Positions 3,371 to 63,319 of a DNA stretch of 64,000 bases are shown piece by piece. The notes beneath the pieces were generated by a model that did no database searches, was not told where the DNA came from, and saw only the letters and a list, made by a program, of their open reading frames with translations. Origin of the DNA: Naegleria gruberi (lineage: Eukaryota); assembly GCA_000004985.1 (NCBI GenBank), contig GG738891.1; one strand, written 5' to 3'. Each line of letters begins with the position of its first letter. Positions within the stretch are counted from its first letter, which is position 1. A program made the translations under genes and the position numbers.

Positions 3371-5029
3371 TTATTCCTCTTCCTCATCCACTACACATGC
3401 ATCATCGCTTTCATATCCACTTGTTGATTTTCTTGGCATACGATTACCAATAGTGCTCTGGAAACGAGGAGCATTTGGATTTGGGAGTGGTCTCCTAGAA
3501 TCACGAACAACAGCTCTCTTTCTAACTGGTATTTTGATTTTCCTCACTGTTTGTCCTTCATTGTCAACTTCTGCTGTTTGTTGTTGATTCACTCCTTCTA
3601 CTGTATTTGCTGTTGGTTGTTGACTCATTTCCTCATCACTATTCGATTTTACATCTTCCGTAGTATCGTATTGTTGTGGAGATTCTTGACGTTGATCAAC
3701 AACTGCTTGTCTTTGTTTTGGTGAAATATCCATAACTTCCATCACTGGAGGTTCTGTTAGATAAGTTTGTTTCGAATTATTCATCTCCAAAGGATTCAAC
3801 AAAACAGGTGGTTGATTAAACGAGGTTTGTGGAGAAGTAGGAGTTGGCAATGCTTTCAAATACCCACTATGTGTCTTTATGCCATTGTGTGGTGTTGTAC
3901 TAATTTGTGGAGGTGGTGCCTGTTTCTTCACTGGTTTATCCCAAGTTGTCGTGCCAGATTGTGCATGATGATAATAGTACTGATTGCTTCCGTAATCGTA
4001 GTAAGCTACCCAACCCTCTTCCAATTGTTCTTCCTGTTGTTGTTGTTGTGTTGTACTAGTAGTTGTTGTTGTAGTTGTTTGTGTGTTGGAAACAGTTGCA
4101 GTTGTTGAGGCAGTTGTTGAAGAAGAAGACGAATTATTGGAAGTGTTTGATGAGGATATTGAGGATGCTGATACTGATGATGATGATGATGTACTGCTGC
4201 TATTATTTGATGATTCATCATCTCCGAATATAGAATGTGCTTCAGCAATCAGGGTTGTCATTAAATTACTAGAATATTTGGAATCCTGGAGAATTTCCAT
4301 GTGACTTTGAGGAAGATCTGATTTTAACAAGTTAGGAGCAAAAACAATGGCCAAATTACTTGGCGACATTTTGTTAATACTTGAATTTGCAGCAACTTTC
4401 TTCAAGAATAAACATAAATTCTTTAAAATTGTAAAGTTTGTGGGTGGAAGAAACTTGATTACTTTTTGAATCATGACCAATCTTTGTTCTTCATCAGGAA
4501 TTCTCTGAATATTTGTGAATTTCATGAATAATTTTCATTTGAATTATATTTTCGAAAGTCAAATGATTCGAATAAGATCTAAAAACAAGTCTAAATAACA
4601 TACCTCAGCTGCCAAAAACATTCCATACTGTTCATATGTCAATAAAGGATCCATCAATTCTCTCAAATACAATTTCAGTAAACTACTCGCCAAGTGAATT
4701 TCATATTTCTCATACGGAACATCAAATTTAATATTTTGCTCTAATTGTTGAATGACTTCATCTTCATCTGATTTTTTAGGTGAAATTCTAAAGATACCTT
4801 CAATCTTTAGTCCATTTTCGTCTAGATAGGACATGGCTTTTAATACGAAAGGAGGTAAATCATTTGGATCGAGTGGAAGTTTCTTTGCAAAAACTTTGGA
4901 ATTTGCAAACTTTTCATTGGTTGGGAATTTTTGTGAACCTGGTGAGTTAGCAGCAACTGGTGATGATGGTGAGTTGGAATTGGTTGGTGGAGATGTCGAT
5001 TTCTTGTTATTCTTTTTAAAGATTTTCAT
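3371..5029 (-). CDS. RhoGAP domain protein with WW domain (2 exons)
   Basis: Exons are 4604..5029 and 3371..4504. The intron 4505..4603 is 99 nt (GTATGT...CAG, phase 0). Joining restores one RhoGAP domain (GIFRISPKK...LLKLYLRELMDPLLTYEQY / RIPDEEQRLVMIQKVIKFLP...NKMSPSNLAIVFAPNLL). A WW motif follows (EGWVAYYDYGSNQYYYHHAQSGTTTWDKP). The ORF-track start at 5092 is GTG, and the first ATG is at 5029. Confidence 0.75.
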
Positions 5030-6350: not shown

Positions 6351-6484
6351 TTTTTTTTGAAATTAGAAACTTAAGTTTATGTAGTTTACAATGAAGAATG
6401 GTCCCTGCCATGAAAAATTGGATAGTAATTGCAATTGTTAGTTTTTGGAGTCATCTTAATTTTATTTTAACAAAGAAACAAAAA

Positions 6485-6602
6485 GACTACAGCACCACAG
6501 GTTCCCAAGTTGTCTCCAACCTCAGTACTGATGTGGCTCGACGATGCTTAACTTCTCAAATCGGACGGGATGAGGTGCATTCATCGTGATATGGCCGTAG
6601 CC
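6485..6602 (-). rRNA. 5S ribosomal RNA
   Basis: The minus strand reads GGCTACGGCCATATCACGATGAATGCACCTCATCCCGTCCGATTTGAGAAGTTAAGCATCGTCGAGCCACATCAGTACTGAGGTTGGAGACAACTTGGGAACCTGTGGTGCTGTAGTC, followed by TTTTT. It is colinear with the eukaryotic 5S consensus (GCCTACGGCCATACC..CCGATCTCGTCTGATCTCGGAAGCTAAGC..AGTACTTGGATGGGAGACC..GGGTGCTGTAGGC). The 5' and 3' ends pair as helix I. Confidence 0.9.
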
Positions 6603-6793: not shown

Positions 6794-6866
6794 TGCCGAC
6801 ACCAGGGATCGAACCAGGGACCTTAAGATCTTCAGTCTTACGCTCTCCCAACTGAGCTATGTCGGC
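6794..6866 (-). tRNA. tRNA-Phe (GAA)
   Basis: The minus strand reads GCCGACATAGCTCAGTTGGGAGAGCGTAAGACTGAAGATCTTAAGGTCCCTGGTTCGATCCCTGGTGTCGGCA. The 7-bp acceptor stem is perfect, the anticodon loop is CTGAAGA and the T-loop is TTCGATC. There is one T:T mismatch in the T-stem. A TTTTT terminator follows. Confidence 0.9.
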
Positions 6867-16932: not shown

Positions 16933-17281
16933 TTAGTTGATTTTGTGACCATTAACTGAAATGTTACCATACTTGTAAATAATGACAAACAGAATAATGA
17001 AAGTAACGATACTACATGCAAGGAAACAGAAAAACAATCCCAAACCAATAGCTCCAAACTATTACAATTTCAAATTCTGATCTACTTACTTTTCTTCCTC
17101 TACTGCTATACTTGGTACGATTTCTTGTAATGAAAAAGAGAACAATCCAAATGATTGGCAAACAAAATCCACCCAAGAATAACAAAAAGGCCATGTCATC
17201 ATTCTTGTTCATTTCAGAATTTTCATTTGGCATGAGTATTTCATTTGGTCTATTTTCTGTGAGTGAATGCTGAGTTTTCAA
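16933..17281 (-). CDS. small two-TM membrane protein (model depends on a 31-nt intron)
   Basis: Exon 1 is 17090..17281 and ends ..YSSRGRK. Removing 17059..17089 (GTAAGT..ATAG) continues the frame as FGAIGLGLFFCFLACSIVTFIILFVIIYKYGNISVNGHKIN, with a stop at 16933. The unspliced ORF instead ends at 17012. Confidence 0.3.
17038..17062. repeat. 25-nt local repeat, copy A (partner 17828..17852, 24/25 identical)
   Basis: TCCCAAACCAATAGCTCCA[A/C]ACTAT occurs twice in direct orientation. In copy A it spans the proposed intron acceptor and exon-2 start of the small TM gene. Confidence 0.8.
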
Positions 17282-17559: not shown

Positions 17560-17581
17560 GAATGTTATTGGAAGGTTACAT
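17560..17581. repeat. 22-nt direct repeat, left copy (partner 18133..18154, 21/22 identical)
   Basis: GAATGTT[A/T]TTGGAAGGTTACAT occurs at both positions. The two copies flank the segment that contains the RGS-gene fragment. Confidence 0.8.
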
Positions 17582-17827: not shown

Positions 17828-17852
17828 TCCCAAACCAATAGCTCCACACTAT
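17828..17852. repeat. 25-nt local repeat, copy B (partner 17038..17062)
   Basis: On the minus strand it is preceded by a GTAAGT...ATAG intron-like 51-nt segment, mirroring the structure at copy A. The downstream frame (CGAIGLGIF..) is truncated. Confidence 0.7.
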
Positions 17853-18132: not shown

Positions 18133-18154
18133 GAATGTTTTTGGAAGGTTACAT
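18133..18154. repeat. 22-nt direct repeat, right copy (partner 17560..17581)
   Basis: The sequence is GAATGTTTTTGGAAGGTTACAT. Confidence 0.8.
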
Positions 18155-27826: not shown

Positions 27827-29593
27827 TTAAAGAACAGTGACAGTCTTGGCCAAATTTCTTGGTTTGTCTGGATCGTGACCACGGAGAAGAGCCAATTCGT
27901 AAGCAACCAATTGGAGTGGAATATTGGCCAACAAGGCACTGAAAATACCATTAGATGGAACATCAATAACATAGTCAGCTTCATGGGATGGAATCTTATC
28001 TGGAATATCAGTAATAGCTACAGTATAAGCACCTCTTGATTTGATTTCAGCAGCAGCTGTCATATTCATCTTAAAGTACTTGTCATCAAGAATGAAAACA
28101 AAAATAACAGTTCCTGGTTCAATAAGGGCGAATGGACCATGTTTCAAGGCACCAGATGAGTAACCTTCGGCGTGAGTGTAAGTAACTTCCTTAACCTTCA
28201 AAGATCCTTCATAAGCAACAGCTTCACCATAACCCTTACCCAACATGAAAAGAGTATTGCCCTTCATGTTATAAATATGTCTGGCAATATGTCTACACTT
28301 CTCTCTAACTCTGCTCAAAACCATACCTGCACTAGTTGGCAAACGATGGAGGTATTGAATAATGGCTTGACGATGTTGAAGTTGGAATTTTGGTGATCTG
28401 TTTTGAGCAAACCACAAACCAATCAATGCCAAAACAGTAACTTGGCAAGAGAATGCCTTGGTTGAGGCAACAGCAGTTTCACGACCAGCATTAATATACA
28501 CACCACACTTTGTAGTTCTAGCAATAGTTGAACCGACACGATTAACGCAGGAGAAGCTTGGAACGCTCAATTGTTCTGCAATATAAATACATCTCAAAAC
28601 ATCAGCTGTTTCACCACTTTGTGATAAAACCAAAAGGCCAGAATTTTCAGGGCAAAAATGTGATTCCTCAAGTTCAGCACCATCAATAACTTGGATAGTC
28701 TTGAAGCATCTCAAATCTCTGAAAATTTGAGCACCATAGAGACCAGCATAGTAACTAGTACCACAACCAGCAATAACCAAATGTTCAATACCAGATAACC
28801 ATTCCTTATTATCATCCAAACCACCCAATTTAACATGACTATCATCACTAATTCTACCACCAAAATTCAAAGATCTTGAAATTGATTCAGGTTGCTCCAA
28901 AATTTCACGAATAGTCCAGTGAGCATGTGGATGAGGAGTCTTTTCAATCTTTTCTTCTTCAACAACAATCTTTCTTTCATAAGGAAGAGTAACACCTTCA
29001 GAGGTAATGACAGCAATTTCATTATTTTCCAAACTGATCATTTCTCTAGTGTACAATCCGAATGCAGAACTTTCGGAAGCAACAAACATCTTACCTTGTG
29101 AAACACCGACCAAGAGAGGAGAACCATTTCTGGCTACAACCAAACGATCTGGTTCAACTGTAGACATAATAACCAAACCCCAAGTACCTTCCAAATGTTT
29201 AGTAGTCTTGAGAACGGCCTTTTCAACAACATCTTGCTTCATTCCATCCTTTAACATTTGGTCCAAATAGACACCAATCATTTGAACAATAACTTCAGTA
29301 TCTGTTTCACTCTTGAATTTAATTCCGTGCTTTTCTATCAATTCCTTTTTCAATTCACCAGAATTTTCAATGACACCATTGTGAACAAGAATCACACGAC
29401 CAGATTGATCCATGTGAGGGTGAGCATTCATATCAGTTTTAGCTCCGTGAGTAGCCCATCTAGTGTGAGCAATACCAATACTATCATTTCCGTGTGTATG
29501 TAAAGTTTCTCTCAATCTCTTAAGAGCATCACTTGTTGTTTGAGAACTGGCATATTTAGTTGTGTGGAAGCAAGGTTCTCCCTTATCGTTTTG
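27827..29593 (-). CDS. GFA1: glutamine--fructose-6-phosphate aminotransferase (isomerizing), 5'-truncated by assembly gap
   Basis: Glutaminase-domain motifs are present (GIAHTRWATHG, NAHPH, LVHNGVIEN). Two SIS domains are present (GCGTSYYAG; LSQSGETADV; GREtaVASTKAF). The C-terminus reads LAYELALLRGHDPDKPRNLAKTVTV. The N-terminus (MCGI...) is lost in the N run. Confidence 0.9.
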   Translation of the reverse strand, partial: QNDKGEPCFHTTKYASSQTTSDALKRLRETLHTHGNDSIGIAHTRWATHGAKTDMNAHPHMDQSGRVILVHNGVIENSGELKKELIEKHGIKFKSETDTEVIVQMIGVYLDQMLKDGMKQDVVEKAVLKTTKHLEGTWGLVIMSTVEPDRLVVARNGSPLLVGVSQGKMFVASESSAFGLYTREMISLENNEIAVITSEGVTLPYERKIVVEEEKIEKTPHPHAHWTIREILEQPESISRSLNFGGRISDDSHVKLGGLDDNKEWLSGIEHLVIAGCGTSYYAGLYGAQIFRDLRCFKTIQVIDGAELEESHFCPENSGLLVLSQSGETADVLRCIYIAEQLSVPSFSCVNRVGSTIARTTKCGVYINAGRETAVASTKAFSCQVTVLALIGLWFAQNRSPKFQLQHRQAIIQYLHRLPTSAGMVLSRVREKCRHIARHIYNMKGNTLFMLGKGYGEAVAYEGSLKVKEVTYTHAEGYSSGALKHGPFALIEPGTVIFVFILDDKYFKMNMTAAAEIKSRGAYTVAITDIPDKIPSHEADYVIDVPSNGIFSALLANIPLQLVAYELALLRGHDPDKPRNLAKTVTVL

Positions 29594-29663
29594 TCTTAAG
29601 NGTTGCAATACCTNNNNNNNNNNNNNNNNNNNNNNNNNNNNNNNNNNNNNNNNNNNNNNNNNN
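29581..29663. other. assembly gap (N run with a few called bases)
   Basis: An N at 29581 and a run of Ns at 29594..29663 are written in the sequence. Confidence 1.
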
Positions 29664-29664
29664 G

Positions 29665-30737
29665 AAGATGTGGAAGTCACCAAATGGTACTATTAGAAAC
29701 ATTTTGGGTGGTACTGTCTTCAGAGAACCTATTGTTATTGAAAACATTCCAAGATTAGTTCCTGGATGGACTCAACCAATTGTTATTGGTCGTCACGCTC
29801 ATGGTGATCAATACAAGGCTACTGACTTGGTTATTGGCGAACCAGGAAAGATGGAACTTGTTTTCACTCCAAAGAATGGTGGTGAAACTCAAAGATACAC
29901 TGTCTTCAACTTTGAAGGTTCTGGTGTTGCTATGGGAATGTACAATACTGATGAATCTATCAGAGATTTTGCTTACTCATGCTTCCAATTGGCTGTTGAC
30001 AAGAAATGGCCATTGTACTTGTCCACCAAGAATACCATCTTGAAGGCTTATGATGGTAGATTCAAGGATATCTTCCAAGAAATCTATGAAAAGGAATTCA
30101 AGACTAAATTCACTGAATTGGGTATCTGGTACGAACACAGACTTATTGATGACATGGTTGCTCAAACTTTGAAGAGTTCTGGTGGTTTCATCTGGGCTTG
30201 TAAGAATTATGATGGTGATGTCCAATCCGATATTGTTGCTCAAGGTTATGGTTCTTTGGGTTTGATGACTTCTGTCTTGTTGTGTCCTGATGGTAAGACT
30301 GTTGAAGCTGAAGCTGCTCACGGTACTGTTACTAGACACTACAGAGAACACCAAAAGGGTAAGGAAACCTCCACCAACCCTGTTGCCTCCATCTTTGCTT
30401 GGTCTCGTGGTTTGGCTCATCGTGCTAAGCTCGATGGTAATGCTGAATTGGCCAAGTTCTGTGATGCTTTGGAAGCTGCCACTATTGAAACTATCAGAGC
30501 TGGTAAGATGACCAAGGATTTGGCTATCTGTGTTCACGGAAACAAGTAAGTTTTTTCACACACGACAGATTTTCTAATTATTATTTTATTATTAATTATT
30601 TGATATTGTGATGATATTAATATTGAAAATTTGCATGATTATTATGGATAAACAGTGTTGATCGTTCTCAATACCTCAACACCAATGATTTCATGGCTGC
30701 TATTGATGAAACTTTGAAGAGTAAGCTCGGATTGTAA
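29665..30737 (+). CDS. IDH: NADP-dependent isocitrate dehydrogenase, 5'-truncated by assembly gap (2 visible exons)
   Basis: Visible exons are 29665..30545 and 30656..30737. The intron is 30546..30655 (110 nt, GTAAGT..CAG, phase 2). The sequence is [23 protein letters not shown]...GRHAHGDQY...[28 protein letters not shown]...[26 protein letters not shown]. The splice yields ..[30 protein letters not shown]. Confidence 0.9.
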
Positions 30738-31049: not shown

Positions 31050-33570
31050 ATGACAACTGAATTGGCTGATGAAGTAGAAACCATCAGAAAGACCTTTCCA
31101 ATTCTATTACACGATGAGGAATTTTCAGATGGAGCCATGCACGTCTCTCTTCGTTATTCGGAACGTGGTAATATCGTAGAGGCTAATCTGTGTTGGGATT
31201 GTAACATGTCATTAGAGGATTTTGTAAATAATACTTGTTGTAATGAATATCATTTGCCAATTTATTTAAAAGATAGTATTACTCATCAATTGTATGAATT
31301 AGTTAGAGAGAGACAATTAGTGAGAAATGATCAAATTACTTGTGATTTTTTCCAATCAACTTTTAGACATCAAGATGATGATGATGAGGAATTGAAACAA
31401 CAAGAAGAACAACAGGCACATGTACAATTTGGACAAGCAATTGATGATTATCGGGATGATGATGATGATGAAGAAGGAGAAGGATGTGATGATGATGATG
31501 ATGATGATGATTATTATTACGATTCGGAAGATAATGAAGATGATGTGGAACAAGACAATGATGAAGAAAATAATGATGAAGATTATTCGGAGGAGGAAAT
31601 TACAGAAGAAGAGGCAACAACTGAATCTGATATTGGAACTTATACAACAACTGAATCGACAATAATAGAAACTGAACAGCATCCAATGAACTTTTCACAA
31701 TTTTACAAGGTTTTTCATTCAAGTGCTACTAGTCAAATTACCTTGACCAAAGTAGCAAATGATTTAAAGTGTGTATATCAGGATAAATATCAAGAAAGAG
31801 ATAGAGGCATTAATCAAATTCAAAAAGAGTATGTTTTATTGAATTTTGAACTCTGAGTCATTTATCACAATTTTATCTAAATTTCACAATAATTATTATA
31901 GACATAGAGATGGAGTTGAACAAAATAATGAAAGAATTGATCAGGTTCAACAAATGGTTCTTGATCACATGAAAGAATTGGAAGAATTTGAGGAAAGATG
32001 GAATTTAGAATTGAGTGAATTGAGAACGAATATCAAACAAACTTTTTGGAATTTTGTGCATGATTTTGAAAAGGATGAAGATAAATCCAAACCAAAAAAC
32101 AAGCAATCCAACACTGTTAGGAGTAAGGAAGAACTCCTACTACCAGGATTCAGATTGATGGAACCAAGAGGCAAACAATTTGAACTTTTATTGAGAAATG
32201 AATTACAAGAAAAGTCAAATACTCAGATTGTTTCAAAATTCGCCTACTTGAAAAGTATTTTAAAGAGAATTAAAAAGAAATCTAATTCTCCAAAGGTTAC
32301 TGTCAATGATCCTTGGACCGTTGTTGAGGATTATGATGCCATTGAACATGTTCAATCAAGTTCGAGTACTCATTCTAACAATCCAGCATCTAGTCAAGAG
32401 CTTGCTAAATCTGCCCTCAACTCTATCAAAATATTCATGAAGAGTCTTTTCAGGGATAACAGATTACTGACAGATATTCCACGATTGATTCAAAATGAAA
32501 GATTCCACGTCTTGTCCTTCTACAAGAAGATTGAACGAATGTATCTCGAGTCAGATGAAATTTTCAGTCCATATGATGATTCATTTGTTTTCATTGAGGA
32601 TGAGAGTGAGAAGGAGGATCCAAACAAGAGATTGTGTGGAAGAATATTTGTAATTTACACTGCTGATATGAGCGATTGTATTTCTAAAAACTACAAGAAG
32701 GATGAAGAGGAAAGAGACTATGAGGAGGAGTATCTTTTATTCAAAACTAGACACTTGTACAATTTGTATCAATCTAGATTGAGTGCACTTGTGGTGAGTA
32801 GTTGCATTCATGATGATCCACAGGATGAGAATGATTCTACCATGAATCAACAAGTTCTCTCTTGGACTATGAGGGACATGGAGAGAATTTCATTTGAGGC
32901 CAATCATGGACAAGGCCCAGATTTTCATTTCCCATCCCTCAATGATCAAGTTTCCCAAATGAAAAGAGACATTAGAAGAAGGTTGAAGAGACAGGAGGCC
33001 ATTGATTTGGGCGAATATTATTTGACCAAACATTCAAATCTGAGTTATGCCAATTGCCTATTCCATATGGTTGCACAATTGGATTCCAAAAAGGAGCATA
33101 ATCTCGACGATTACAACAAGATTCTTCAAGCATACTCAAATATTATAGATGAATGTAGAAATATGGGTATTAGAAATTTATCTATTCAATTACCACTCTC
33201 ACTATCTTACAAACATCCTAAAATTGATGGAAATTTACCAAATGGAGATACTATTATATTGCAAATTAGGGATATTATGAAGATTTATTTAAAGAAACAG
33301 AAAGAATATGGATCATGGTTCCTCCCTAATCTATTCTTCTATTGTCCAAAGAATCCAAAACATTCATCAGGAGATTTCCAATGTCAGTGTCACTATTCCA
33401 TTCTCAAAACATCAGATGATATTTTACATGTTTCAGGTAGTGAAAATTCAGACAATCGCTATGAAGAAAGTCACAATGAGAATGATAATCTTCACAAGTA
33501 CATTGTTGAACCATTCTTCAAATCTTATTTGAATTCCAATATTCAATTACCACCTTCATGGATGCAATAA
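31050..33570 (+). CDS. hypothetical protein with long acidic (poly-Asp/Glu) region (2 exons, ~815 aa)
   Basis: Exon 1 is 31050..31828. The intron is 31829..31901 (73 nt, GTATGT..TAG, phase 2). Exon 2 is 31902..33570. The junction reads ..INQIQKE-HRDGVEQNNERID. I recognise no domain with confidence. Confidence 0.55.
31488..31511 (+). repeat. (GAT)8 trinucleotide repeat inside coding sequence (poly-Asp); a second (GAT)5 lies at 31455..31469
   Basis: This was read directly from the sequence. Confidence 0.95.
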
Positions 33571-33663
33571 AACTTGAACAACGTTTGTTCTTAAAATATC
33601 TCATTAACTTTTTCATGTTAAATTGAAAAGTGTGTAAATGTACATTGTGAGTTAATATTTATT

Positions 33664-34728
33664 TTACAAATCATCATTAAATCTATCCAATCCAGCATCT
33701 TGATTTGAATGCATTGATGTAAACATGGATCTAATTGACTTTTTAGGTTTTGCTTGTTTAGAATTAGGATATCTCCATTCAGGATTCGGTTGATAAGTTT
33801 CAAAAGTTCTCAATACTTTTACCAAATGTTGAAAACACTCCTCAACATTCTTTCTAGTTTTTGCCGAAACATAATAAATCGGACATGATAATTTCAATTC
33901 ATTCTTGACAATCATTGAAATTGTCTTTTCTGGAATATGACTCATCAAATCACACTTATTTCCAACAATTACACATGGAAAATCCAAATTATCTAGAGTA
34001 GGACATGGCCTATATTTATCATTCTTTATCGATCTAATTTGCTCAATAAATGGTTGAAGTCTACGAAGTGATTCATCTGCTCGAGAAACATCAAAAACTA
34101 GAATAAATCCATAACATGATTGCATGTAGGATTGTCTTAGTGCCTAGTTTCGAATAGTTTCAATTGAAATAGATATGATTATAATCAGTCCATGAAATAT
34201 TATAATAATTGAGTAATACTATTTCAATATATATAGTTACCTTATAATCATCTGCATTACAATAAATTGTAAATAATTAGGATCATTATTATATTCGAAA
34301 GTATACTTACCTTGTCCGGCAGTATCAATAATTTCCATTTCCAAACTCAAATCATCATATTGTCTCTTTACATAAAAACTCGTTTCAATAGTTGGATCAT
34401 ACAACTATTAAATATTTAAATATTATTACAAAAATATTACAAAATATTGTAATTGGTAATATTGTTATATTCGAAAGTGATTATTTGAAAAGAAACCTAC
34501 ATCCTCTCCTTCAAATTTATTTTGTGTATACTGGATAGTCTTTTTTTCCGAAATACGTTTATTTCCACAACTTTCGAATAATTTATTGAACCTACCACCG
34601 ATGTTTTTCCAACTCCACCATCTCCAACCTAATTGTTATTATTATTCAGAATATATTTGATGATGAAAAATTAAAACACGTACGATGGCGACTTGGTAAA
34701 AATTTACATTGTCTTTGGTTTTTGGCAT
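33664..34728 (-). CDS. Ras-family small GTPase without CAAX box (6 exons including an 11-nt micro-exon)
   Basis: Exons are 34684..34728, 34596..34628, 34501..34539, 34311..34404, 34241..34251 and 33664..34143. Introns are 55, 56, 96, 59 and 97 nt. The joined protein starts MPKTKDNVNFYQVAIVGDGGVGKTSVTIQYTQNKFEGEDLYDPTIETSFYVKRQYDDLSLEMEIIDTAGQDDYKALRQSYMQSCYGFILVFDV...VIVGNKCDL...YYVSAKT. The G1, G3, G4 and G5 boxes are all present only after joining. Confidence 0.75.
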
Positions 34729-35918
34729 TTTTTTTATAGTTTGGCAGATGACATGTTAAAAAGGAACGCGATTATGGCAACCAAAATAATCAGAATGGGA
34801 AGGTTCATCATATTGTAGTTAATTTTTCGTGATATTATATTGTACTTGTTTACAATAATACTATTTAATGTTATTGTAAACTATTGAATTGTGCGCGGGA
34901 GATGACCTTTCAATGGAAAGAATCTTATTTTGATTGATTAGAACTTCAATAGTTTTGTAGATCGTACACGTGTCTTGAAGTGAGGAGGTAGGTGTAGAAA
35001 CATTCAAATTGATTAGAAAGATATTCAGCTCAAAAAAAGACTTTGAGTTTCTGAATTGGCTATTTTTGAAAATTAATGAAAAACTGGTCATGTAGCTAAG
35101 GAGGAAAGCTTTAATCTTCAATGGAGCCCTGTTCATCAAGTAATCAAGTCATTTACATACAATGAAACTTCACTTTCTGATAGAAATTCGAAACTAGCTC
35201 AGTGATTGACTCTAGTTGTGTAGTCGTTATATCTCCATCAGTTCCATCAGTTATGGAACTTTTCAAAGCTGTCATTAATAGTACATCTCTTGCAACATGA
35301 ATTACAATGGTTCACTAAAAAGTTGAAATCATTTTACAATGACTATCTTTTGGCTTTTTTCTTTGAACAGTTCAACAATTTACAAACTTTTTCACAACTA
35401 CCAACACAGGTTGCCACATCAATTGATTCGGAATTCCAATTATTATTAATTTCACTACTTTCCAACTAACATTTCGCAATAGCAATAGGGCTAATTACCT
35501 GCGAGCTGTATTAACAAACACATCGTAGAATCGTACTTGATAGAGATTGTCCTCACCACATCGACTCTCACTTGACCACCAGATGAATTTGAATGATGAA
35601 ATGAGCATTGCTGCCTTGCACTTAATATCCATTATCGATAGTTGAAAGTAGTTGAAACGCTGTTGCTTATTCTTCGCGCACTTGGAGCACTTGCGGTATA
35701 GCATCTAAGTGCGCCACTGCTTTCTGCTCAAGAGAGAATCTCCTAGTGCTGCAGCAAGGACGATGTTCGGCAATTTTTTTCCAAACTTAAGTGCGCCAAA
35801 GTCTTTCTCGAAAATAGATTCAAACAGAAAAAAAAAACAACGCCACATTTGTGTTGATATTATCTCATCTATATAATTGCTACTAGTTATTAGATAACAC
35901 CAAGAATAGAGAGAGAAA

Positions 35919-38059
35919 ATGGCTAGTGAAGTGAATATGTTGAGTGGCACATCGGTCGATTTGAATGATGAAAAGCCTTCGGATCACAAAGTACACGTAG
36001 AACCAGCACCACCACAGGCACAATCCCGAAATCCTTTCAAAAGACTTAAACAACGAAAAGAGAAGGCTAATTTGAAACATAATAGTGAAGAAATACCAGA
36101 TCCTAGGGACCCTAAAATTGGTTTTAAAGACCAAATGGTTCTATTCAAAATGTTTGGAGCAGCAAATTGGTTTTTAATCTTTTTGGGTAGTATTGGTGCT
36201 ATGGGGTAAGTAGTTTATAATGATATGATGATTCTAATGTATTTAGTGCTGGTGTTATTCCATTGACTTTCCAATTTGTTTTGGGAGATTTATTGAATTC
36301 TTTGGCTACTGCTTTTGCAGATCCTAATGCTTTGAGAGATAGTGTTAATACAATTGCTGCTAAATTTGCAGGTATTGCATTGGGTGCTTTGATTGCGAAT
36401 TTCATGATGCAATTCTTTTTGAACTGGGCTTCCGAACGTATTGCTGTTGCTTTAAGAGAAGGATATTTCAATGCTCTTACAGCTCAAGAAATGGCCTTTT
36501 TTGATATTAAGAAAGTTGGTACTCTTACTGTAGCACTCAGTGAGGATGTTGCCAAAATTCAAGATACTTATACTTTAAAGTTTGCCACATTTTTACAACA
36601 AATGACACAATCCGTAGTTGGTATTGTTCTTGCCTTTGTCAGTAGTTGGCAAATGAGTTTAGTCATGATTTCAACTTCACCATTGATGGTTGTGTTTGTT
36701 GGTGGTTTGTCACAAATGATTAAGTGGTTGACCAAAAAAACAAACGATGCCAATGAACACTCTGCTGCCATTGCTACAGAAATTATTTCTTCAATGAGAA
36801 CTGTTAGAAGTATGGCTGGTGAAATTAAAGAACAAAATAGATTTAAGGAAGATTTGAAGAAGGTTGGATTATTCGGTTTTTGGAAAGCAATGTTCCAAGG
36901 TTTAACATTTGGTTCAATTACCTTCATTCTTTGGGGTACTGTTGCTTTGGCATTTTGGGTAAGTAGTAGTATGCATTTATTTAATGATAACTGTTTATTA
37001 TTAGTATGGTGGTGGTTTGACTGTTGATAAAACTATCACTCTTGGTGATATGTTTAAGGTATTCGGTCTTATGCTTATGGGTGTTCTCGGTCTCTCCCAA
37101 GCAGGTACCTTCTTCCCAGATTTGAGTAAGGCAAGAATGAGTCAAGTTACTCTTTTGAAAGTTATTAGAAGAAGTCCAGAAATTCCATTCAAGGGTGGAA
37201 AGACTTTGGAAAATATTTCTGGTAATATTTCTATTAGAAATGTCGATTTTATCTATCCTTCTCGTCCAAATATTACTGTTTTGAAGAACTTCTCCCTTGA
37301 AATTACACCAGGTCAATCCGTAGCTCTTGTTGGTCCTTCAGGTTCTGGTAAATCAACCATTGTTGGTCTTGTTGAAAGATTTTACAATGCAAACTCTGGT
37401 CAAATCTACATTGATGGTGTTGATATTACTGAACTCGATCCAATGTGGCTTCACAGAAAGATTGGTATTGTTACTCAAGAACCAGTGCGTAAGTATCTTT
37501 TGTTTTTATGCAATTAACAATTTGGAAAATAGTTTTTGCTTGTAGTATTAGAGATAACATTGCCTATGCTGTTGGTGCCGAAAATGTTACACAAGAACAA
37601 ATTGAAGATGCTGCTAAAGCTGCCAACTGTCACAATTTCATTGTTGATCTCCCAGAAGGTTATAACACAATGTTAGGTGAAAAGGGTGTTTCATTATCAG
37701 GTGGTCAAAAGCAAAGAATTGCTATTGCTCGTGCCTTGTTGCAAAATCCATCTGTTCTTTTATTGGATGAAGCTACATCTGCATTGGATACTGAATCAGA
37801 AGCTCTCGTTCAAGCTGCTTTGGACCATTTAATGAAAGGACGTACTTCAATTTGTATTGCCCACAGACTTTCAACAGTTAAGAACTCTGACACCATTTGT
37901 GTTTTGGCTAAGGGTGTTTTGGTTGAAAAGGGTAAACATGAAGAATTGTTACAAATTGAAAATGGTGTTTACAAAAAGTTAGCTGAAAAGCAAATGATGT
38001 TTGGTAAATCAGAGAGTAAGATTGATTTGGAAGCAGTTATGGATATTATTGAAGAGTAA
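35919..38059 (+). CDS. ABC transporter, B-family half-transporter (TMD-NBD, 4 exons)
   Basis: Exons are 35919..36205, 36247..36958, 37005..37488 and 37533..38059. Introns are 41, 46 and 44 nt, all with GTAAGT donors. The junctions read [25 protein letters not shown] and [17 protein letters not shown]. Walker A is GPSGSGKST, the signature is [14 protein letters not shown] and Walker B is [12 protein letters not shown]. Confidence 0.85.
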
Positions 38060-38279: not shown

Positions 38280-39458
38280 ATGTCATCACTCAATCATGAA
38301 CAACGATTTTCCCGAATTGAAAAATTATTCAAAAACTTAGCCTCTACCCACAATCCTTCCGGAGAAGAATCCAATCTCATGCTCGAGATTAAATCCTTTC
38401 TACTCGATCACCAATTGATTGACAATTCAAATAGTTGTCATGATAATTTCCTCCTCTTTGATACTCAAATTGGAATGATATTCAAATGTAGTACTTTCAA
38501 TGATGAGAATCAAAATTTCATTTCGGATGAAAATTCACCATCGATTTGTTTATTTGCTCATCTTGATAGTGATCACATTGAATTGGAACAAGAAAAATTG
38601 AAACAATTAATTTGGAGAAGAGATGAAAATCTTCTTTACTATTCAAATAATGAAGAAATTGTTGAGGTTGGACTTGATGATAAGAGTGGAATTTGTGTCA
38701 TTTTGGAAACCTTGTTGAGATTGAAAGAAATGAAGGGTATTAGAGTGAATGTTTATGTTTGTTTTTCAGTACAGGAAGAAACTGGACAGAAAGGAGTTAT
38801 GAGAATGGATCATTTGATGTTTAAATCAATGGTTGAGGATGGAGGAGTGGGTTGTGGAATTGCTGTTGATAGAATGACATATTATCATCCAGAAAATAAG
38901 AGACATTTAGTGGACGAATATTGCCGAATTCCATTGATACCCAACGATCAAAAAGACTCTTTCATGAATCAATTTAATAAGAGCAGTCAATTGGTGGAGG
39001 GATGCGACATTGATTTCATCCCAAGTGAAAATTGCAGTGATCTATTGGAATATAAAATCAAATTGGATTGTGAAATTATTGCACCAGAAATGTTAGAATC
39101 CTTAAACGCTCACGATGTTAAATTATTCGAAAAACTTTCAACTCTCTTAGAGAAATATGAAAATATCACGAGTGAAATTAAGAAAATTATGAATAACATT
39201 TCAGCAACGAGTAGAGTGAGTGGATTTAAAAGTCATCCAAGATTTACCAGATATCAACTGGCACATCAAATTAATTCATTGATTTACTCTGACAAGGTAT
39301 TGAAATTTTACAATGAAACATCATTGAAAAAGTATTTAAATGTTTCTTTTGTAAATTTGAGTTTGGATTATGATGACAGTTGTGGATTTGTTTCTTTGAA
39401 AGAATTGGATAATACAGCTGAAATTTTATTTGATTTTATTAGAAATTATCACCTTTAA
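38280..39458 (+). CDS. putative zinc metallopeptidase (M20/M28/M42 superfamily-like)
   Basis: The 392-aa ORF starts at an ATG after an A-run. Its motifs resemble metal ligands of this clan (FAHLDSDH; VGLDDKSGICVILE; FSVQEETGQKG). The family assignment is tentative. Confidence 0.5.
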   Translation: MSSLNHEQRFSRIEKLFKNLASTHNPSGEESNLMLEIKSFLLDHQLIDNSNSCHDNFLLFDTQIGMIFKCSTFNDENQNFISDENSPSICLFAHLDSDHIELEQEKLKQLIWRRDENLLYYSNNEEIVEVGLDDKSGICVILETLLRLKEMKGIRVNVYVCFSVQEETGQKGVMRMDHLMFKSMVEDGGVGCGIAVDRMTYYHPENKRHLVDEYCRIPLIPNDQKDSFMNQFNKSSQLVEGCDIDFIPSENCSDLLEYKIKLDCEIIAPEMLESLNAHDVKLFEKLSTLLEKYENITSEIKKIMNNISATSRVSGFKSHPRFTRYQLAHQINSLIYSDKVLKFYNETSLKKYLNVSFVNLSLDYDDSCGFVSLKELDNTAEILFDFIRNYHL

Positions 39459-39662: not shown

Positions 39663-41558
39663 TCACTTGTATGAAATTTCTTTCATATCAAAGCTAGTAT
39701 TGATAAAGTCAATGATGTTCTTCTGAGTGTTTGTAATCAAGTGAGATTTACCTTGCATTGTGGTAATTCTAGATCTAAAGTCTCGTTCATCGAGTGATAA
39801 GTTCAGAATGGCATCTAAATTTAACAATAAATCAGAAGTATAGTCTTCCAAACGAGATAGATGGTCATTAAATAAATAACCATAGGTCTCTAACATTAAA
39901 AATTCCTTCTCTGACTTTTTGGTTGTGTTAAATTTGATTTTGAGTGTGTCAAATCCGAAATGAATGTAAGCAAATGCATAACATGAACGTAAGAGTCTTC
40001 TACATCTGTAGATATTTCTGAAAGAGTCGAGAAGGAATTTGAGATCCTTGGTTGGTCTAATATGGAAAAACTTTTCCTTATAATTTGCAATTTCGAGTCG
40101 ATAGTGACCTGTTCGTTTATGTTCCTCCAACCATTGATTGTGTCTTCTGTATAATGAGACGAATCTTCCATAAAGTTCTTCTGCTGCAGAGAATAATTTA
40201 ATATCTTCAGATGTTTTCACTGTCTTTGGAGCACAAACTGTTTCAGCATGAACGTAGGATGTATACTCTGAACCACACTATCGATGAAGAATCAAAACTA
40301 AACTCTCTTTGATGATGATACTTACAATATAACAAAATTCATGTCCACAAACACAATTAATGTGATTACATCCAACATCCTTAAATATAATTCTTTTACA
40401 CTTGTTACATTGTTGACTTGTTCTGTGAATAAACTCTTTCGATGCAAAATCATCCTGAGCAATAGTCAAGAATCTCTTATACACATCACATGAGCATGGG
40501 AAGTGAGGATCCTTATCACATTGGAAGCAACACTCTTCACCACACTTGCATTGAGCAATGTACAAACTTTCATCACATAGTTTCTTGATTGCATAGGGAC
40601 CATCACAGCCTGGATTAGGACACCACTTTAGTCTGTAACTTGAACCCACATATGAATCAATCTTTCTCTGGAAAAACTTTTCAAATAATTCCTTATCTTC
40701 CTTTGGATCCAATTGTGACAACATAAATGTCTCAGTAAGTGTAGTCTTACATGAATAGTCCATACACTTTACAGTATTATCATTCATTGCTGTTTTGACA
40801 TGATTGACAATATATTCCTTCCAACAAGTTCTACAGAAAACATGTCCACACATATCATATGCGTACAATGGAACATCATCTGAATAACAAGCATCACATG
40901 TGCCAATTGTTGAAGATGAACATGATTTTTTGAAATCTGGATTGAGTCCACACTTGGTTAATAAAGCATCCAATCCCAAATCACCATAATCTCTAATTAA
41001 TTTCTCTGTATTCCACTGATATTCCTTCAACATACATTCCACAAATACTTTACTCTTCAATTGAAGAGTTTCAGCTGCTGTCTTTACTTCTGCCTCTTGA
41101 TCTTGCAATAATTCCTTTGTATCAAGTACCTTGTACAATTCTCCTTTTGTTTTAAATTCCCTCGTCTTGACAACTTCTACAAAGGCAGATTCGTCCACTT
41201 GTTCACCAATATCATCATCAAAGTAATGTTCTTCTCCTACTATATCATCTTCATTGTATTCAATTTCCTCCTCCTCTTCATAATTTTCCTCTTCATGATC
41301 ATGATGATCACAACCACATTCCGGCGTCTCGTGCTCTTCTTCCTTCTCTTCATCATCAATTGAAGCTTCCAATAAATCACCATTCTCCTCACACATCTGA
41401 ATGACAGTCTCTATGGCAAGAGCCTCATCTAAATTACAATCCAAAACCACTTGATGGAGTGTTTGGAGGCTAATACTGGGAAAGAGTTCGTTCAATGAGA
41501 GAACGATTGCTTTTATTTTTTCCTTTCGTTTGTCCTTCTCGGATTGTTGTTGACTCAT
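39663..41558 (-). CDS. RBR (RING-IBR-RING) E3 ubiquitin ligase, Ariadne-like (2 exons)
   Basis: Exon 1 is 40326..41558. The intron is 40278..40325 (48 nt, GTAAGT..TAG, phase 0). Exon 2 is 39663..40277. RING1 is CDACYSDDVPLYAYDMCGHVFCRTCWKEY. The IBR is WCPNPGCDGPYAI...CKCGEECCFQCDKDPHFPCSC. RING2 is CNKCKRIIFKDVGCNHINCVCGHEFCYI-CGSEY and spans the splice site. A helical Ariadne-type C-terminus follows. Confidence 0.8.
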
Positions 41559-41750
41559 TTTTTTATTTTGTTGATTTCTACGCTGTTTGTTTTCGAAATT
41601 GAAGTTGAGATGCTGAAAGTTCTTTGATAATGAAAAACAAACAAGAGTACTAAGTTACAAAAAAGGAAAACTTAAAAGGAAAGGGGACCAGTGGGAATCG
41701 AACCCACGGCCTCTCGCACCCAAAGCGAGAATCATACCACTAATTTTTAT

Positions 41751-41825
41751 GAAAGGGATTTGTGAAGAAGGGATCTGTGAGGAAGGGATCCGTTACAAAA
41801 GGGATTCATTGAGAATGTGTTAGTT
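41751..41825 (+). repeat. GGGAT-core ~16-bp tandem array 1 (4 intact + 1 degenerate unit)
   Basis: GGGAT cores lie at 41755, 41770, 41785 and 41801, followed by a GTGTTAGTT variant. The array is preceded by ATTTTTA. Confidence 0.85.
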
Positions 41826-42241
41826 ACTTTCGAATATTTAATTGAAATTTGATCTATATTAAAAAAAATTGCGGAAGGGGTAGTCTCTTTTTTGAAATTA
41901 ATAAAAATATACAATTTTGAAAATTAAAAATCAAGTTTTTTTATTGTTATTTGATGTTTGATTATTTTCTGTAAATTGATTAATTTCACATTTTCTATTA
42001 TGACAATAATGTGAATAATTAACACTTTTTGATGGTTTGTAATTTTGATTCATTTTCTTTTTTAAAATTTAATCTCATTCTAATTTTTAAAAATGTAATT
42101 GTTCATATTATTAAAATGTTATTTTTCTATTTACAATAAATTATTCTATCTCTCTTGAATATTTTTAATAATTGTAAATTTTCTAAAAAAAGGAAATAGA
42201 TAATATTCAATTAAATCCCTTCTAATTTTAAATTTTTTTTT

Positions 42242-42335
42242 GAGAAAGGGATTTGTGAGGAAGGGATTCATTGCAAAAGGGATCCGTTCTGAAAGGGATT
42301 CATTGAAAAATGGATTCATTATGGATGTGATAGTT
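42242..42335 (+). repeat. GGGAT-core ~16-bp tandem array 2 (4 intact + 2 degenerate units)
   Basis: GGGAT cores lie at 42248, 42263, 42279 and 42295. TGGAT variants lie at 42311 and 42322. The array is preceded by T9. Confidence 0.85.
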
Positions 42336-42403
42336 TCAAATTTTAATTAATAATATAAAATTAACACAATATTTATTCTATTTATATACATTTCTTTTTT
42401 TGG

Positions 42404-42510
42404 TAATGGATTTCATTGCAAAAGGGATCCGTTAAAGAAGGGATTCATTACAGAAGGGATCTGTTACAAAAGGGATTCATTGTAAACGTGTTTCATTGAG
42501 AAAGTGTTTC
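42404..42510 (+). repeat. GGGAT-core ~16-bp tandem array 3 (4 intact + 3 degenerate units), abutting the right TSD
   Basis: A TGGAT variant lies at 42407. GGGAT cores lie at 42424, 42440, 42456 and 42472, followed by CGTGTTTCATT and AAGTGTTTC variants. The array is preceded by T7. Confidence 0.85.
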
Positions 42511-42787
42511 TACCACTAGACCATGGTCCCTTACGTTTAAAATCCATTATATTTAAAATTGGTGCCTATAATACGGACTACATCTATTTTCCTTGTGTGA
42601 TTCATTACAAAAGGATGGCTATTCAAAACTTTAGAAGGTTACAATTTTAAATGTACTTTGCATGTTACTCACTATTTTTAGTGTCCCAATAGATTTCACT
42701 CACATTCTATTGAAGGTGTTGTGAAAAAAAAAGCACCAACAACCAATACCTTTACTAATCGCTCACTGCCAGCAGTTCATTACCAAC

Positions 42788-44531: not shown

Positions 44532-45712
44532 TTTTTTTTTGACTTGATTGACAAGATTTGCTTTTCGTGCAGTTGAATTTATTTCACCTTCTTTATAAAG
44601 AATTAAAAAACGTTCTAAACACATTCTGTGCTCCTTCTAATGTTCCAGCTAGAAAGTCAAGCAAGTTATTGTAAGTTCGTCCACTACAGCAAAGTTATGA
44701 GAAAAAGGCAATCAATAAAATATTGTGATTTTTGACCAATCAATTTTTGGCTGGATTTTGATCATGATATTAAAGCTGTGCACTACTACATAAAACTGAG
44801 ACCAGGTAGGAGTACACACAATACATCAAATCGTTCTAGATGATCTCTAGAATTTGATTTTTGATAGCGTGAGATTCTAGTAACTATAATTTTGGAATTT
44901 GAATTGTTTTTAAGAAAAAAGAATCATTTTGGCCCAGTTTCTTGCTGAAGGTGAGTTTGGATGAAGAGTTAGAAACACACTTATATACGTAATACTGGTT
45001 TTGTGAAGAGGAGTTTTTCGCTCTTATTGAAATTTTAGAAGATCTTGCAAGAAAATAGAACCACTTTGGAAAGGGCAAGTAAATTTTGAAATAATTGACA
45101 AGAGAACCATGAGAAATCTTCAGACGGTGGTTGAAAAAATTGTTTTCAAATTGAGTTCAAGATCATTAGAAAAAGAATCGAAATTTACCGTGAAGTGGAA
45201 CATTGAAAAGTGTTTTCTCATATCTGATACCCTCCTATTATCACAAGCTTTCTCATCAAGACATAATGCCCTAAATCTTATAAGATTGAAATTCCTCTTC
45301 AAAGTCATCAATCTATTTCAATAAATAACAATAAAAATGGTTAAACTCCAACATCATGGTGATAAAGATAGTGAACTTCCCGATTAATTCAAGTATTAAT
45401 TTAAATCTGCATTTTGTAATTGCACTACTATTCATCCCCTTTGTAAACTCTCAATACCCATCCTTCAACAAATCCCATTGAATTTGAATTTCCAATCAAC
45501 ACCTATTCTTTCAAGATCTCTAAATTGCAATCAGATTCACAAATTCCATGTCACTTCATCATCAACTTCATATGAATGAATTAAATTTTCAATAAATATT
45601 TGAAAATGCACAATTTTAAAATAAAGGCCTCTCCTCAAAAAAATATCTCAACACCTTTAAACGCCACACTCCCTAACCGAGCAATATTAGTAGTCATATA
45701 TAAAACAGCAAG

Positions 45713-62757: not shown

Positions 62758-63319
62758 ACCCATATTCTTTTGAAGCGACATCAACTTTGAGGTATTTCAG
62801 TTTCTAAACAAGTTTTCAATGAAAAATTGCTTATTATACAAAAGAACTTAATCCTTAATGATGCTTAATGATGGAATTTACAGTAAAACAGAAATTTCTT
62901 TCCAAATATATAATAATAGAGTATTGAACCTCTAATGAGCAGATATATATTACATTTAATATTCTTAATAAATAGTTTCATTATTTGTAATTTCTATTTT
63001 TTGTAATATTTTTGGAATATCACAATTATCACCATCATTCAAATAACATTTACTTTTTAATGAATGAATATTATTTGATTGAGGTGTTGTATCAGAAACT
63101 CCACCTATTGTGGATGAAGAGGAGTGACGAATTGTAATCAAATTGTTTGATCAGATTTTAACTGAAAATCATAGTGAAAGTTCGTATGATTGTTGTAATA
63201 ATGAGAGCGGTTACAATTGATCATCCACCAATGGATTGGAAGGAGGGTTTCACCGCAAATTTTGCTAACTCCTAAACTTTGAATGCACATATTTGGAGAG
63301 ATTTTCAGCAAAAGAAAAA

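What the first reader, a model, noticed from the sequence alone, without database searches (positions are those of the whole stretch)
34144..34595. Introns of the Ras-like gene (and the RhoGAP intron at 4505..4603) share an ACTTTCGAA(A)TATAA motif and hairpins, suggesting paralogous or inserted introns
Read in gene sense, Ras intron 4 is GTAAGTAT-ACTTTCGAATATAATAATG-ATCCTAATTATTTACAATTTATTGTAATGCAG. Ras intron 3 contains ACTTTCGAATATAACAATA-TTACCAATTACAATATTTTGTAAT. The two share the 15-nt motif start ACTTTCGAATATAA[T/C] (14 of 15 positions identical) and a downstream TTACAAT/ATTGTAA hairpin. Intron 2 has the reverse-oriented AACTTTCGAATAAT on the + strand at 34569, and intron 5 has ATTCGAAACTAG. 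The unrelated RhoGAP gene's only intron has GACTTTCGAAAATATAATTC plus a second TTCGAA. That makes 6 TTCGAA sites in about 460 nt of these introns, and none in the other ~15 introns I modelled. The window-wide frequency of TTCGAA looks roughly as expected for this base composition. The 13-mer TACTTTCGAATAT also occurs inside the tRNA-Pro insertion at 41825..41837. Shared sequence between introns is the hallmark of intron duplication or introner-like mobile introns.
Basis: seen in the sequence. Interest (0 to 1): 0.5.

Follow-up and report, generated by a model that had tools for sequence, protein, structure and literature searches.

The report
Copied intron in Naegleria Ras gene
Two neighbouring introns of an unannotated Ras-like gene in the amoeba Naegleria gruberi share a copied stretch of about 47 bases, and one of them is missing from related species, so it is probably a young intron built from its neighbour; the wider "shared motif" is a short word that is common in this genome, not evidence of a mobile-intron family.

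Summary
The minus-strand Ras-family gene (34728-33664) has five GT-AG introns and an 11-nt micro-exon, and it is not in the public protein set. The RhoGAP intron reproduces the annotated protein exactly.

One part of the finding is real homology. It scores 28.1 bits, against 20.9 for intron 4's next best hit in the window. In a 98.4%-identical sister strain it scores 32.8 bits. Intron 4's position is empty in the N. fowleri and Willaertia magna orthologues. Intron 4 is therefore most likely a young intron derived from intron 3. The copy direction is unproven.

The rest is weaker. A[C/G]TTTCGAA is over-represented, lies mostly in non-coding DNA, and clusters at this locus. Introns 2 and 5, the RhoGAP intron and the tRNA-Pro insertion match only over about 20 nt. 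The hairpins are no more stable than shuffles. There is no evidence for an introner family, but that needs the whole genome to test.

The parts
33664..34728 (-). Ras-family small GTPase gene (ATG 34728, stop 33664-33666), six exons, 233 aa; absent from the public N. gruberi protein set
   Evidence: Pfam Ras E = 2e-35. 60% identity to N. fowleri P0001. The exact sequence is not in the collection.
34629..34683 (-). Intron 1 (55 nt), no TTCGAA
   Evidence: Same position in N. fowleri.
34540..34595 (-). Intron 2 (56 nt); carries the motif in reverse orientation (ATTCGAAAGT in gene sense)
   Evidence: Position shared with N. fowleri and W. magna.
34405..34500 (-). Intron 3 (96 nt), at an old position shared with N. 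fowleri
34436..34479 (-). Core of intron 3 that is homologous to intron 4 (ACTTTCGAATATAACAAT...TTACAATATTTTGTAAT)
34252..34310 (-). Intron 4 (59 nt), phase 1 between Q70 and D71 of DTAGQ|DDYK; lineage-specific
   Evidence: No intron at this position in N. fowleri or W. magna. Present in sister strain L002.
34256..34302 (-). Core of intron 4 that is homologous to intron 3 (47 of its 59 nt)
34241..34251 (-). 11-nt micro-exon (AT GAT TAT AAG) between introns 4 and 5
   Evidence: It is needed to keep the reading frame and restores the conserved DDYK.
34144..34240 (-). Intron 5 (97 nt); ATTCGAAACTAG at its 3' end
   Evidence: Position shared with N. fowleri.
35187..35196 (-). TAGTTTCGAA site about 460 nt upstream of the Ras ATG, in a stretch with no ORF of 100 aa or more (apparently intergenic)
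4505..4603 (-). RhoGAP intron (99 nt) with ACTTTCGAAAAT and a second TTCGAA
41826..41837 (+). ACTTTCGAATAT inside the 768-bp insertion that splits a tRNA-Pro gene

Best explanation
Short-range copying of sequence between introns of one gene explains the finding. The largest copy, about 47 nt in the same orientation and 176 nt apart, links old intron 3 to intron 4. Intron 4 exists only in the N. gruberi lineage and consists almost entirely of that copy (47 of 59 nt).

Most likely, intron 4 was created after the N. gruberi / N. fowleri split from intron-3 sequence placed at a proto-splice site (CAAG|AT) inside the conserved DTAGQDDYK codons. This produced an 11-nt micro-exon.

Shown: the homology, the lineage-specific position, and the fact that intron 4 must be spliced out.

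Inferred: the direction (I3 to I4) and the mechanism. Two mechanisms fit. One is reverse splicing of the excised intron 3 into the transcript, followed by cDNA recombination and later shrinkage by two deletions of about 15 nt. The other is a templated patch laid down during double-strand-break repair.

The shorter A[C/G]TTTCGAA(T) matches in introns 2 and 5, the upstream spacer, the RhoGAP intron and the tRNA-Pro insertion reflect a short, N. gruberi-specific, mostly non-coding over-represented word. At this locus, smaller copy events of the same kind may add to it. They are not a family of whole introns.
For: - I3 against I4: 36 identities in 47 columns, z = 5.4 against dinucleotide shuffles.
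- It is the best non-self hit of I4 in the whole window, E = 4e-5.
- With composition-aware scoring it reaches 28.1 bits, against 20.9 for the next hit.
- Real non-coding segment pairs reach 28.1 bits in 3 of 38,844 trials, and none reach the sister-strain value of 32.8 bits.
- The four-way alignment with strain L002 implies an ancestral run of about 22 identical bases, CACTTTCGAATATAATAATTAT.
- The N. fowleri gene model with four introns reproduces P0001 exactly. It reads GCCGGCCAAGATGATTACAAA straight through the I4 site.
- W. magna has introns only after codons 12 and 26.
- Orthologous N. gruberi and N. fowleri introns are unalignable, scoring 9-14 on the scale where I3-I4 scores 23.5. The copy is therefore younger than the species split.
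- I4 is 59 nt, so retaining it shifts the frame. Splicing restores the conserved DTAGQDDYK.
- Exact direct repeats of 14 nt or more lying less than 1 kb apart are in excess (7 against 1.3 expected), while inverted ones are not.
- I3 and I4 differ between the two strains about ten times more than their surroundings: 10 events in 145 nt against 15 in 2,341 nt, including an 11-nt tandem duplication. This points to an unstable patch.
Against: - The shared block is short and AT-rich. In an all-against-all comparison of the window's non-coding DNA it ranks only about ninth.
- Both ends of the two introns differ: GTAGGTTTCTTTTCAAATAATC against GTAAGTAT, and AATATTTAAATATTTAATAG against GCAG. A full-length reverse-spliced copy therefore needs two later deletions, and a templated patch needs splice sites from elsewhere.
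- The direction of copying is not established.
- A paralogue in N. lovaniensis has an intron only 6 nt upstream of the I4 site. An old intron near this site cannot be excluded.
- No transcript evidence was available for the gene.
Confidence: 0.5

Rival explanations
1. A patch was copied between two introns that both already existed. Intron 4 is older. It was either gained earlier or lost precisely in N. fowleri and W. magna. A neutral duplication of about 45 nt from its interior was inserted into intron 3, or the reverse. On this reading the similarity says nothing about how intron 4 was born.
For: - Insertion into an existing intron is neutral and needs no new splice sites.
- In intron 3 the core is flanked on both sides by unique sequence, as an insertion would be, and TAAT lies at both junctions.
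- The CTAAT branch-point-like element lies in the I4 copy, while the I3 copy reads CCAAT or CCCAT.
- Local direct duplications are in excess in this window.
- A paralogue has an intron 6 nt from the I4 site.
- W. magna has clearly lost or never had several of these introns.
Against: - It needs two independent events.
- Intron 3 without the core would be only about 38-42 nt, shorter than any candidate intron seen in the window, which are 45 nt or more.
- N. fowleri intron 3 is 87 nt, close to 85 nt in strain L002.
- The source segment would have to fall almost exactly within the 59-nt intron.
Confidence: 0.25
2. Chance or convergence. I3 and I4 are unrelated AT-rich introns that each contain two words common in N. 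gruberi non-coding DNA: A[C/G]TTTCGAAT and TTACAAT/ATTGTAA.
For: - TTCGAA-centred words and ATTGTAAA (35 against 13 expected) are among the most over-represented k-mers in the window.
- Intron 3 has an equally high-scoring hit to an intergenic AT-rich stretch at 62979-63019.
- The I3-I4 alignment consists of two well-conserved blocks joined by a poorly conserved linker with a gap.
Against: - An empirical null built from real non-coding DNA, which contains those same words, gives P of about 1e-5 to 8e-5 per pair.
- The sister strain's versions are more alike still, at 32.8 bits. Positions that vary between strains resolve towards identity of the two introns.
- The best hit of I4 in 64 kb is the adjacent intron of the same gene.
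Confidence: 0.12
3. Introner-like or mobile-element origin. A small N. gruberi element carrying ACTTTCGAATAT, possibly related to the 768-bp insertion that disrupts tRNA-Pro, seeds or invades introns.
For: - The same 12-13-mer lies in an element that is demonstrably an insertion with an 8-bp target-site duplication.
- Intron 2 and the RhoGAP intron hit the same 21-23 nt of that element, with 19/21 and 20/23 matches.
- The motif is absent from 21 kb of N. fowleri and 7 kb of W. magna, so it is specific to the lineage.
Against: - Those matches have E = 0.01-0.14 and sit among chance hits of equal score.
- The introns show no TIR or TSD.
- Neither the 47-nt core nor the 768-bp element has another copy in the window.
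- The metagenome scan found nothing related.
- No paper in the searched library links introners to Naegleria.
Confidence: 0.08
4. A functional cis-element. A[C/G]TTTCGAAT would be a palindrome-cored binding site clustered at this gene, or the complementary copies in flanking introns would pair in the pre-mRNA to help splice the 39-nt and 11-nt exons.
For: - Five of the seven A[C/G]TTTCGAAT 10-mers in the window lie within 1.05 kb of this locus, in both orientations.
- The core CTTTCGAATAT is invariant in I3 and I4 of both strains while the flanks vary.
- The predicted fold pairs the I2 motif with the I3 motif and the I4 motif with the I5 motif.
Against: - The fold is no better than shuffles (z = -0.87).
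- The motif is not conserved in the N. fowleri orthologue.
- Its position within the introns is not consistent: it begins 9-84 nt from the 5' splice site in the five motif-bearing introns (sequences).
- Invariance of 22 nt at this level of divergence is not significant.
Confidence: 0.05

Closest known systems
Intron transposition / intragenic intron duplication (cases inferred in Oikopleura and Mycosphaerella; review PMC3443670)
   Same: A lineage-specific intron resembles another intron of the same gene. It lies in the same orientation and sits at a proto-splice site (AAG|A).
   Different: Only the interior 47 nt is shared. The splice-site-proximal ends differ, so a full-length reverse-spliced copy is not demonstrated. 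The direction of copying is unproven.
[quoted passage not shown]
   Same: A short local template, 176 nt away, was copied in direct orientation. The region is rich in indels between strains. Local direct repeats are in excess.
   Different: No clear flanking direct repeats beyond a 2-nt AG. The origin of the GTAAGTAT and GCAG ends is unexplained.
Introners / introner-like elements (Micromonas, Aureococcus, Zymoseptoria and other fungi)
   Same: Introns that share sequence, and a lineage-specific gain.
   Different: Introners occur as many near-identical full-length copies in unrelated genes, often with TIRs and TSDs. Here there is one pair in one gene, sharing 47 nt, with no TIR or TSD.
Tandem genomic duplication of an AGGT-containing exon segment
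   Same: A local duplication that creates an intron without changing the protein.
   Different: In that model the new intron is a copy of adjacent exon sequence. Intron 4 matches intron 3, not the flanking exons.

Membership tests
Intron transposition (intragenic intron duplication) | The new intron is at a position that is empty in the orthologues of related species | tested here: met
   N. fowleri (two strains) and W. magna have no intron at Q70|D71. The intron is present in N. gruberi NEG-M and in strain L002.
Intron transposition (intragenic intron duplication) | Significant sequence similarity to another intron, in the same orientation | tested here: met
   28.1 bits, or 32.8 in L002. Empirical P is about 1e-5 to 8e-5 per pair.
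Intron transposition (intragenic intron duplication) | Similarity over the full intron length, including the splice-site-proximal ends | tested here: not met
   The first 8 nt and last 4 nt of I4 have no counterpart adjacent to the core in I3. Two deletions of about 14-16 nt would be needed.
Intron transposition (intragenic intron duplication) | Insertion at a proto-splice site (MAG|R) | tested here: met
   CAAG|ATG. This is weak evidence, because most introns satisfy it.
Intron transposition (intragenic intron duplication) | An RNA intermediate (reverse splicing followed by reverse transcription) | not testable with these tools
   Sequence alone leaves no signature that separates this from DNA-level copying.
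Introner / introner-like element family | Many near-identical copies in unrelated genes across the genome | tested here: inconclusive
   No further copy in the 64-kb window, which is a small fraction of the genome. N. gruberi loci could not be fetched. The metagenome scan found nothing related.
Introner / introner-like element family | Terminal inverted repeats and/or target-site duplications at the intron ends (DNA-transposon type) | tested here: not met
   Only a 2-nt AG repeat flanks I4. The motif orientations, read in gene sense (reverse, forward, forward, reverse for I2-I5), do not delimit an element.
Introner / introner-like element family | Stable predicted secondary structure (fungal ILEs) | tested here: not met
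   z-scores of -0.07 for I3 and +0.73 for I4 against shuffles.
Tandem-duplication (AGGT) intron gain | The intron sequence is a duplicate of the adjacent exon | tested here: not met
   The best hit of I4 is I3. No flanking-exon sequence is among its six best window-wide hits.

The most novel reading that the evidence does not exclude
N. gruberi carries a lineage-specific family of very small introner-like sequences with the core ACTTTCGAATAT. The family would be related to the 768-bp element that has inserted, with an 8-bp target duplication, into a tRNA-Pro gene. It would both invade existing introns (I2, I3, I5, RhoGAP) and create new ones (I4). This would be the first introner system reported in Heterolobosea/Discoba.
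Probability: 0.07. Interest if true: 0.75.

Novelty: new member of a known kind. Interest (0 to 1): 0.4.

Why it matters
Cases where a young spliceosomal intron can be traced to an identifiable source sequence are rare. The review PMC3443670 counted 14 for intron transposition, in two genera. How introns are gained is still disputed. This locus offers several things in a culturable discoban amoeba: a candidate gain, a source only 176 nt away, a micro-exon created by the event, and a sister strain that already shows rapid change at both copies. Sequencing the same 1 kb from other Naegleria species would settle the direction of copying. As it stands, the evidence is one short pair in one gene, so the finding is a useful data point and does not establish a new principle.

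Tried and rejected
- **Fetching more of the N. gruberi genome.** Exact-protein look-ups with window proteins, P0124 and P0009 all returned "not on record". No genome-wide intron test was therefore possible.
- **JGI metagenome scan.** The pattern CTTTCGAATAT-N(8-25)-TTACAAT-N(1-6)-TTGTAAT gave one hit, L006. It is an unrelated AT-rich contig with no similarity in the spacer.
- **Automatic intron cataloguing.** ORF-joining and a codon log-likelihood filter were either too noisy or too strict. I used only introns checked by homology or exact annotation, plus a model-free split into long-ORF and other sequence.
- **Hairpin function.** Rejected on fold z-scores.
- **Known RNA families.** None in 34000-36000.
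- **TIR or MITE reading of the motif.** Rejected from the orientation pattern.
- **Tandem-duplication origin of intron 4.** Rejected because there is no similarity to the exons.
- **Segmental duplication including the flanking exons.** No similarity seen by eye between the exon sequences flanking I3 and I4.
- **Motif conservation in N. fowleri and W. magna.** Absent.
- **Literature link between introners and Naegleria.** None found.

Full report
**Source of the window and validity of the gene models**

Eight of nine long-ORF products from the window are exact matches to annotated proteins of Naegleria gruberi NEG-M on one 339,217-bp scaffold. GC content is about 33%.

The finding lies in a minus-strand gene with ATG at 34728 and stop at 33664. 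Removing five GT-AG introns gives a 233-aa protein. The introns are 34683-34629, 34595-34540, 34500-34405, 34310-34252 and 34240-34144. The protein matches Pfam Ras end to end, E = 2e-35.

Its closest relatives are N. fowleri P0001 (60% identity) and Willaertia magna P0003 (52%). The exact protein is not in the 15-billion-sequence collection, and no near-identical full-length N. gruberi protein was returned. The gene therefore appears to be unannotated.

The RhoGAP model with the 4603-4505 intron reproduces XP_002673390.1 exactly and has an uninterrupted RhoGAP domain.

**Checking the observation**

There are six TTCGAA in the 462 nt of Ras introns 2-5 plus the RhoGAP intron.

It occurs 36 times against 16.75 +/- 4.1 in dinucleotide-preserving shuffles. 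Under a maximal-order Markov expectation the excess is about 1.5-fold. It is enriched both in long-ORF sequence (22 against 12.5) and outside it (14 against 5.4).

Extended words are over-represented more strongly:
- ACTTTCGAA: 5 against 0.67 expected.
- TAGTTTCGAA: 5 against 0.09 expected.
- TTCGAA-centred words rank among the top 8- to 10-mers under a third-order Markov model.

Eleven A[C/G]TTTCGAA sites exist. By my count from the site list and the ORF tables, eight lie outside long ORFs and five lie within 1.05 kb of the Ras locus.

The motif is absent from 21 kb of the N. fowleri orthologous region and from the W. magna locus.

The hairpins are real inverted repeats but fold no better than shuffles. 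The z-scores are -0.07 for I3 and +0.73 for I4.

**The part that is real homology**

Intron 4 and intron 3 align over 47 columns with 36 identities and one 4-nt gap, in the same orientation. The supporting numbers are:
- z = 5.4 against shuffles.
- E = 4e-5 in a search of the whole window.
- With composition-aware scoring, 28.1 bits, against 20.9 for intron 4's next best hit anywhere in 64 kb.
- Random pairs of real non-coding segments, which contain the same common words, reach 28.1 bits in 3 of 38,844 trials. A Gumbel fit gives 1.4e-5.

A metagenome contig, L002, is 98.4% identical to window 32009-34490 and carries both introns. In that strain the pair scores 32.8 bits, a value never reached in the null. 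Positions that differ between strains mostly resolve towards identity of the two introns. This implies an ancestral run of about 22 identical bases.

In an all-against-all comparison of the window's non-coding DNA the pair ranks only about ninth. After correcting for the few dozen same-gene intron pairs, the significance is about 1e-2 to 1e-4. That is convincing but not overwhelming.

**Intron 4 is lineage-specific**

The N. fowleri gene with four introns reproduces P0001 exactly. Its introns sit at the positions of I1, I2, I3 and I5, and the sequence reads straight through the I4 site. A second N. fowleri-like assembly is the same. W. magna has only two introns, after codons 12 and 26.

Orthologous N. 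gruberi and N. fowleri introns are unalignable, scoring 9-14 on the scale where I3-I4 scores 23.5. The I3-I4 copy is therefore much younger than the species split.

Intron 4 is 59 nt long, so it must be spliced out to keep the frame. Splicing restores the conserved switch-II sequence DTAGQDDYK and leaves an 11-nt micro-exon.

**Interpretation**

The simplest single event that explains both a lineage-specific intron and its resemblance to its neighbour is that intron 4 was made from intron-3 sequence. This is an intron duplication of the kind the review PMC3443670 calls intron transposition, or a DNA-level equivalent through templated break repair.

I hold this at about 0.5 because the direction of copying is not shown. 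The main rival, at about 0.25, is a neutral patch copied from a pre-existing intron 4 into intron 3. Three observations favour that rival:
- The core in intron 3 is flanked on both sides by unique sequence.
- The branch-point-like CTAAT lies in the I4 copy.
- A paralogue in N. lovaniensis has an intron 6 nt from the I4 site.

Two observations count against it:
- Intron 3 without the core would be only about 40 nt.
- N. fowleri intron 3 (87 nt) is about as long as the present N. gruberi one.

Two further observations suggest a locally unstable copy-and-paste region:
- Exact direct repeats of 14 nt or more lying less than 1 kb apart are in excess, 7 against 1.3 expected, while inverted ones are not.
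- I3 and I4 differ between the two strains about ten times more than their surroundings. There are 10 events in 145 nt, including an 11-nt tandem duplication. The remaining 2,341 nt have 15 events, and intron 5 has none.

**The rest of the claimed family**

The other matches are short:
- Intron 2 against intron 4 in reverse: 20 of 25.
- Intron 2 against intron 5: 18 of 21.
- Intron 2 and the RhoGAP intron against the tRNA-Pro insertion: 19 of 21 and 20 of 23.

All are centred on the same word. They have E-values of 0.01-0.14 and empirical P of 0.003-0.05.

These matches may be older or smaller copy events, or simply the over-represented word. They are not evidence that whole introns are paralogous. 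Their intron positions are old, being shared with N. fowleri, whereas the motif is not shared.

No TIR, TSD or additional copy supports an introner family. A specific gapped-pattern scan of JGI metagenomes found only an unrelated sequence. No paper in the library links introners to Naegleria.

The genome-wide test remains undone because the N. gruberi genome could not be reached.

In a predicted fold of the pre-mRNA, the I2 motif pairs with the I3 motif and the I4 motif with the I5 motif. The fold is no better than shuffles (z = -0.87), so I treat RNA bridging as speculation.

**Verdict**

What is there is a probable young intron, or at the least a young inter-intron copy, in an unannotated Ras-like gene of N. 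gruberi. It sits on a background of a lineage-specific, mostly non-coding, over-represented TTCGAA-centred word. It is a new example of a known kind of event. Interest is moderate.

Noticed in passing
window 41683-42530 (minus strand): A tRNA-Pro(UGG) gene is split in its D-arm by a 768-bp insertion (41743-42510) flanked by an 8-bp direct repeat, TAGTGGTA. Removing the insertion and one repeat copy gives an intact tRNA by ARAGORN. The insertion has no evident terminal inverted repeats and no other copy in the window. It looks like a mobile element.
   Followed up: partly
window 41744-41821, 42237-42330, 42398-42508: Inside that insertion there are three arrays of a 16-nt tandem unit (about GAAGGGATTCATTACA). 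The first two are each followed by a related ACTTTCGAATATTTAATT / AGTTTCAAATTTTAATT segment.
   Followed up: partly
window 33664-34728 (minus strand): The Ras-like gene has no exact or near-identical full-length match among N. gruberi proteins in the collection. It appears to be missing from the public annotation.
   Followed up: yes
window 34252-34500 compared with L002 1-226: Introns 3 and 4 differ between two 98.4%-identical strains about ten times more than the flanking exons, intron 5 and the neighbouring gene. No explanation was established. Ectopic exchange or instability of the AT-rich palindromes are candidates.
   Followed up: partly
L007 2265-2342 (N. lovaniensis paralogue P0006): The paralogous Ras gene has a phase-1 intron inside the G codon of DTAGQ. 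This is 6 nt upstream of the intron 4 position and in the same phase.
   Followed up: partly
window 1032-1041, 1700-1709, 38909-38918, 41190-41199, 44676-44685: The 10-mer AGTGGACGAA occurs five times against 0.06 expected. Two copies lie about 50-100 nt upstream of start codons and two lie inside ORFs. The flanks share no similarity.
   Followed up: no
window-wide, for example 3363, 20462, 50985, 51030: ATTGTAAA / AATTGTAAAT is strongly over-represented (35 against 13, and 11 against 1.8). TGTAAA lies within 2-44 nt after the stop codon in 5 of 10 checked genes. This suggests a UGUAA-type polyadenylation signal.
   Followed up: partly
window 17038-17056 / 17828-17846 and 17568-17581 / 18141-18154: There are two local direct repeats with different offsets (790 and 573 nt) in a region without long ORFs. 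One is a 19-mer encoding WSYWFG in both copies. This suggests a diverged internal segmental duplication in a multi-exon gene on the minus strand.
   Followed up: no
window 6484-6602 (minus strand): A 5S rRNA gene (Rfam, 105 bits) lies about 190 nt from a tRNA-Phe gene (6794-6866).
   Followed up: no
window 29601, 29614-29663: There are runs of N (an assembly gap) where the minus-strand ORF 27827-29683 and the plus-strand ORF 29560-30549 overlap. Gene models here are unreliable.
   Followed up: no
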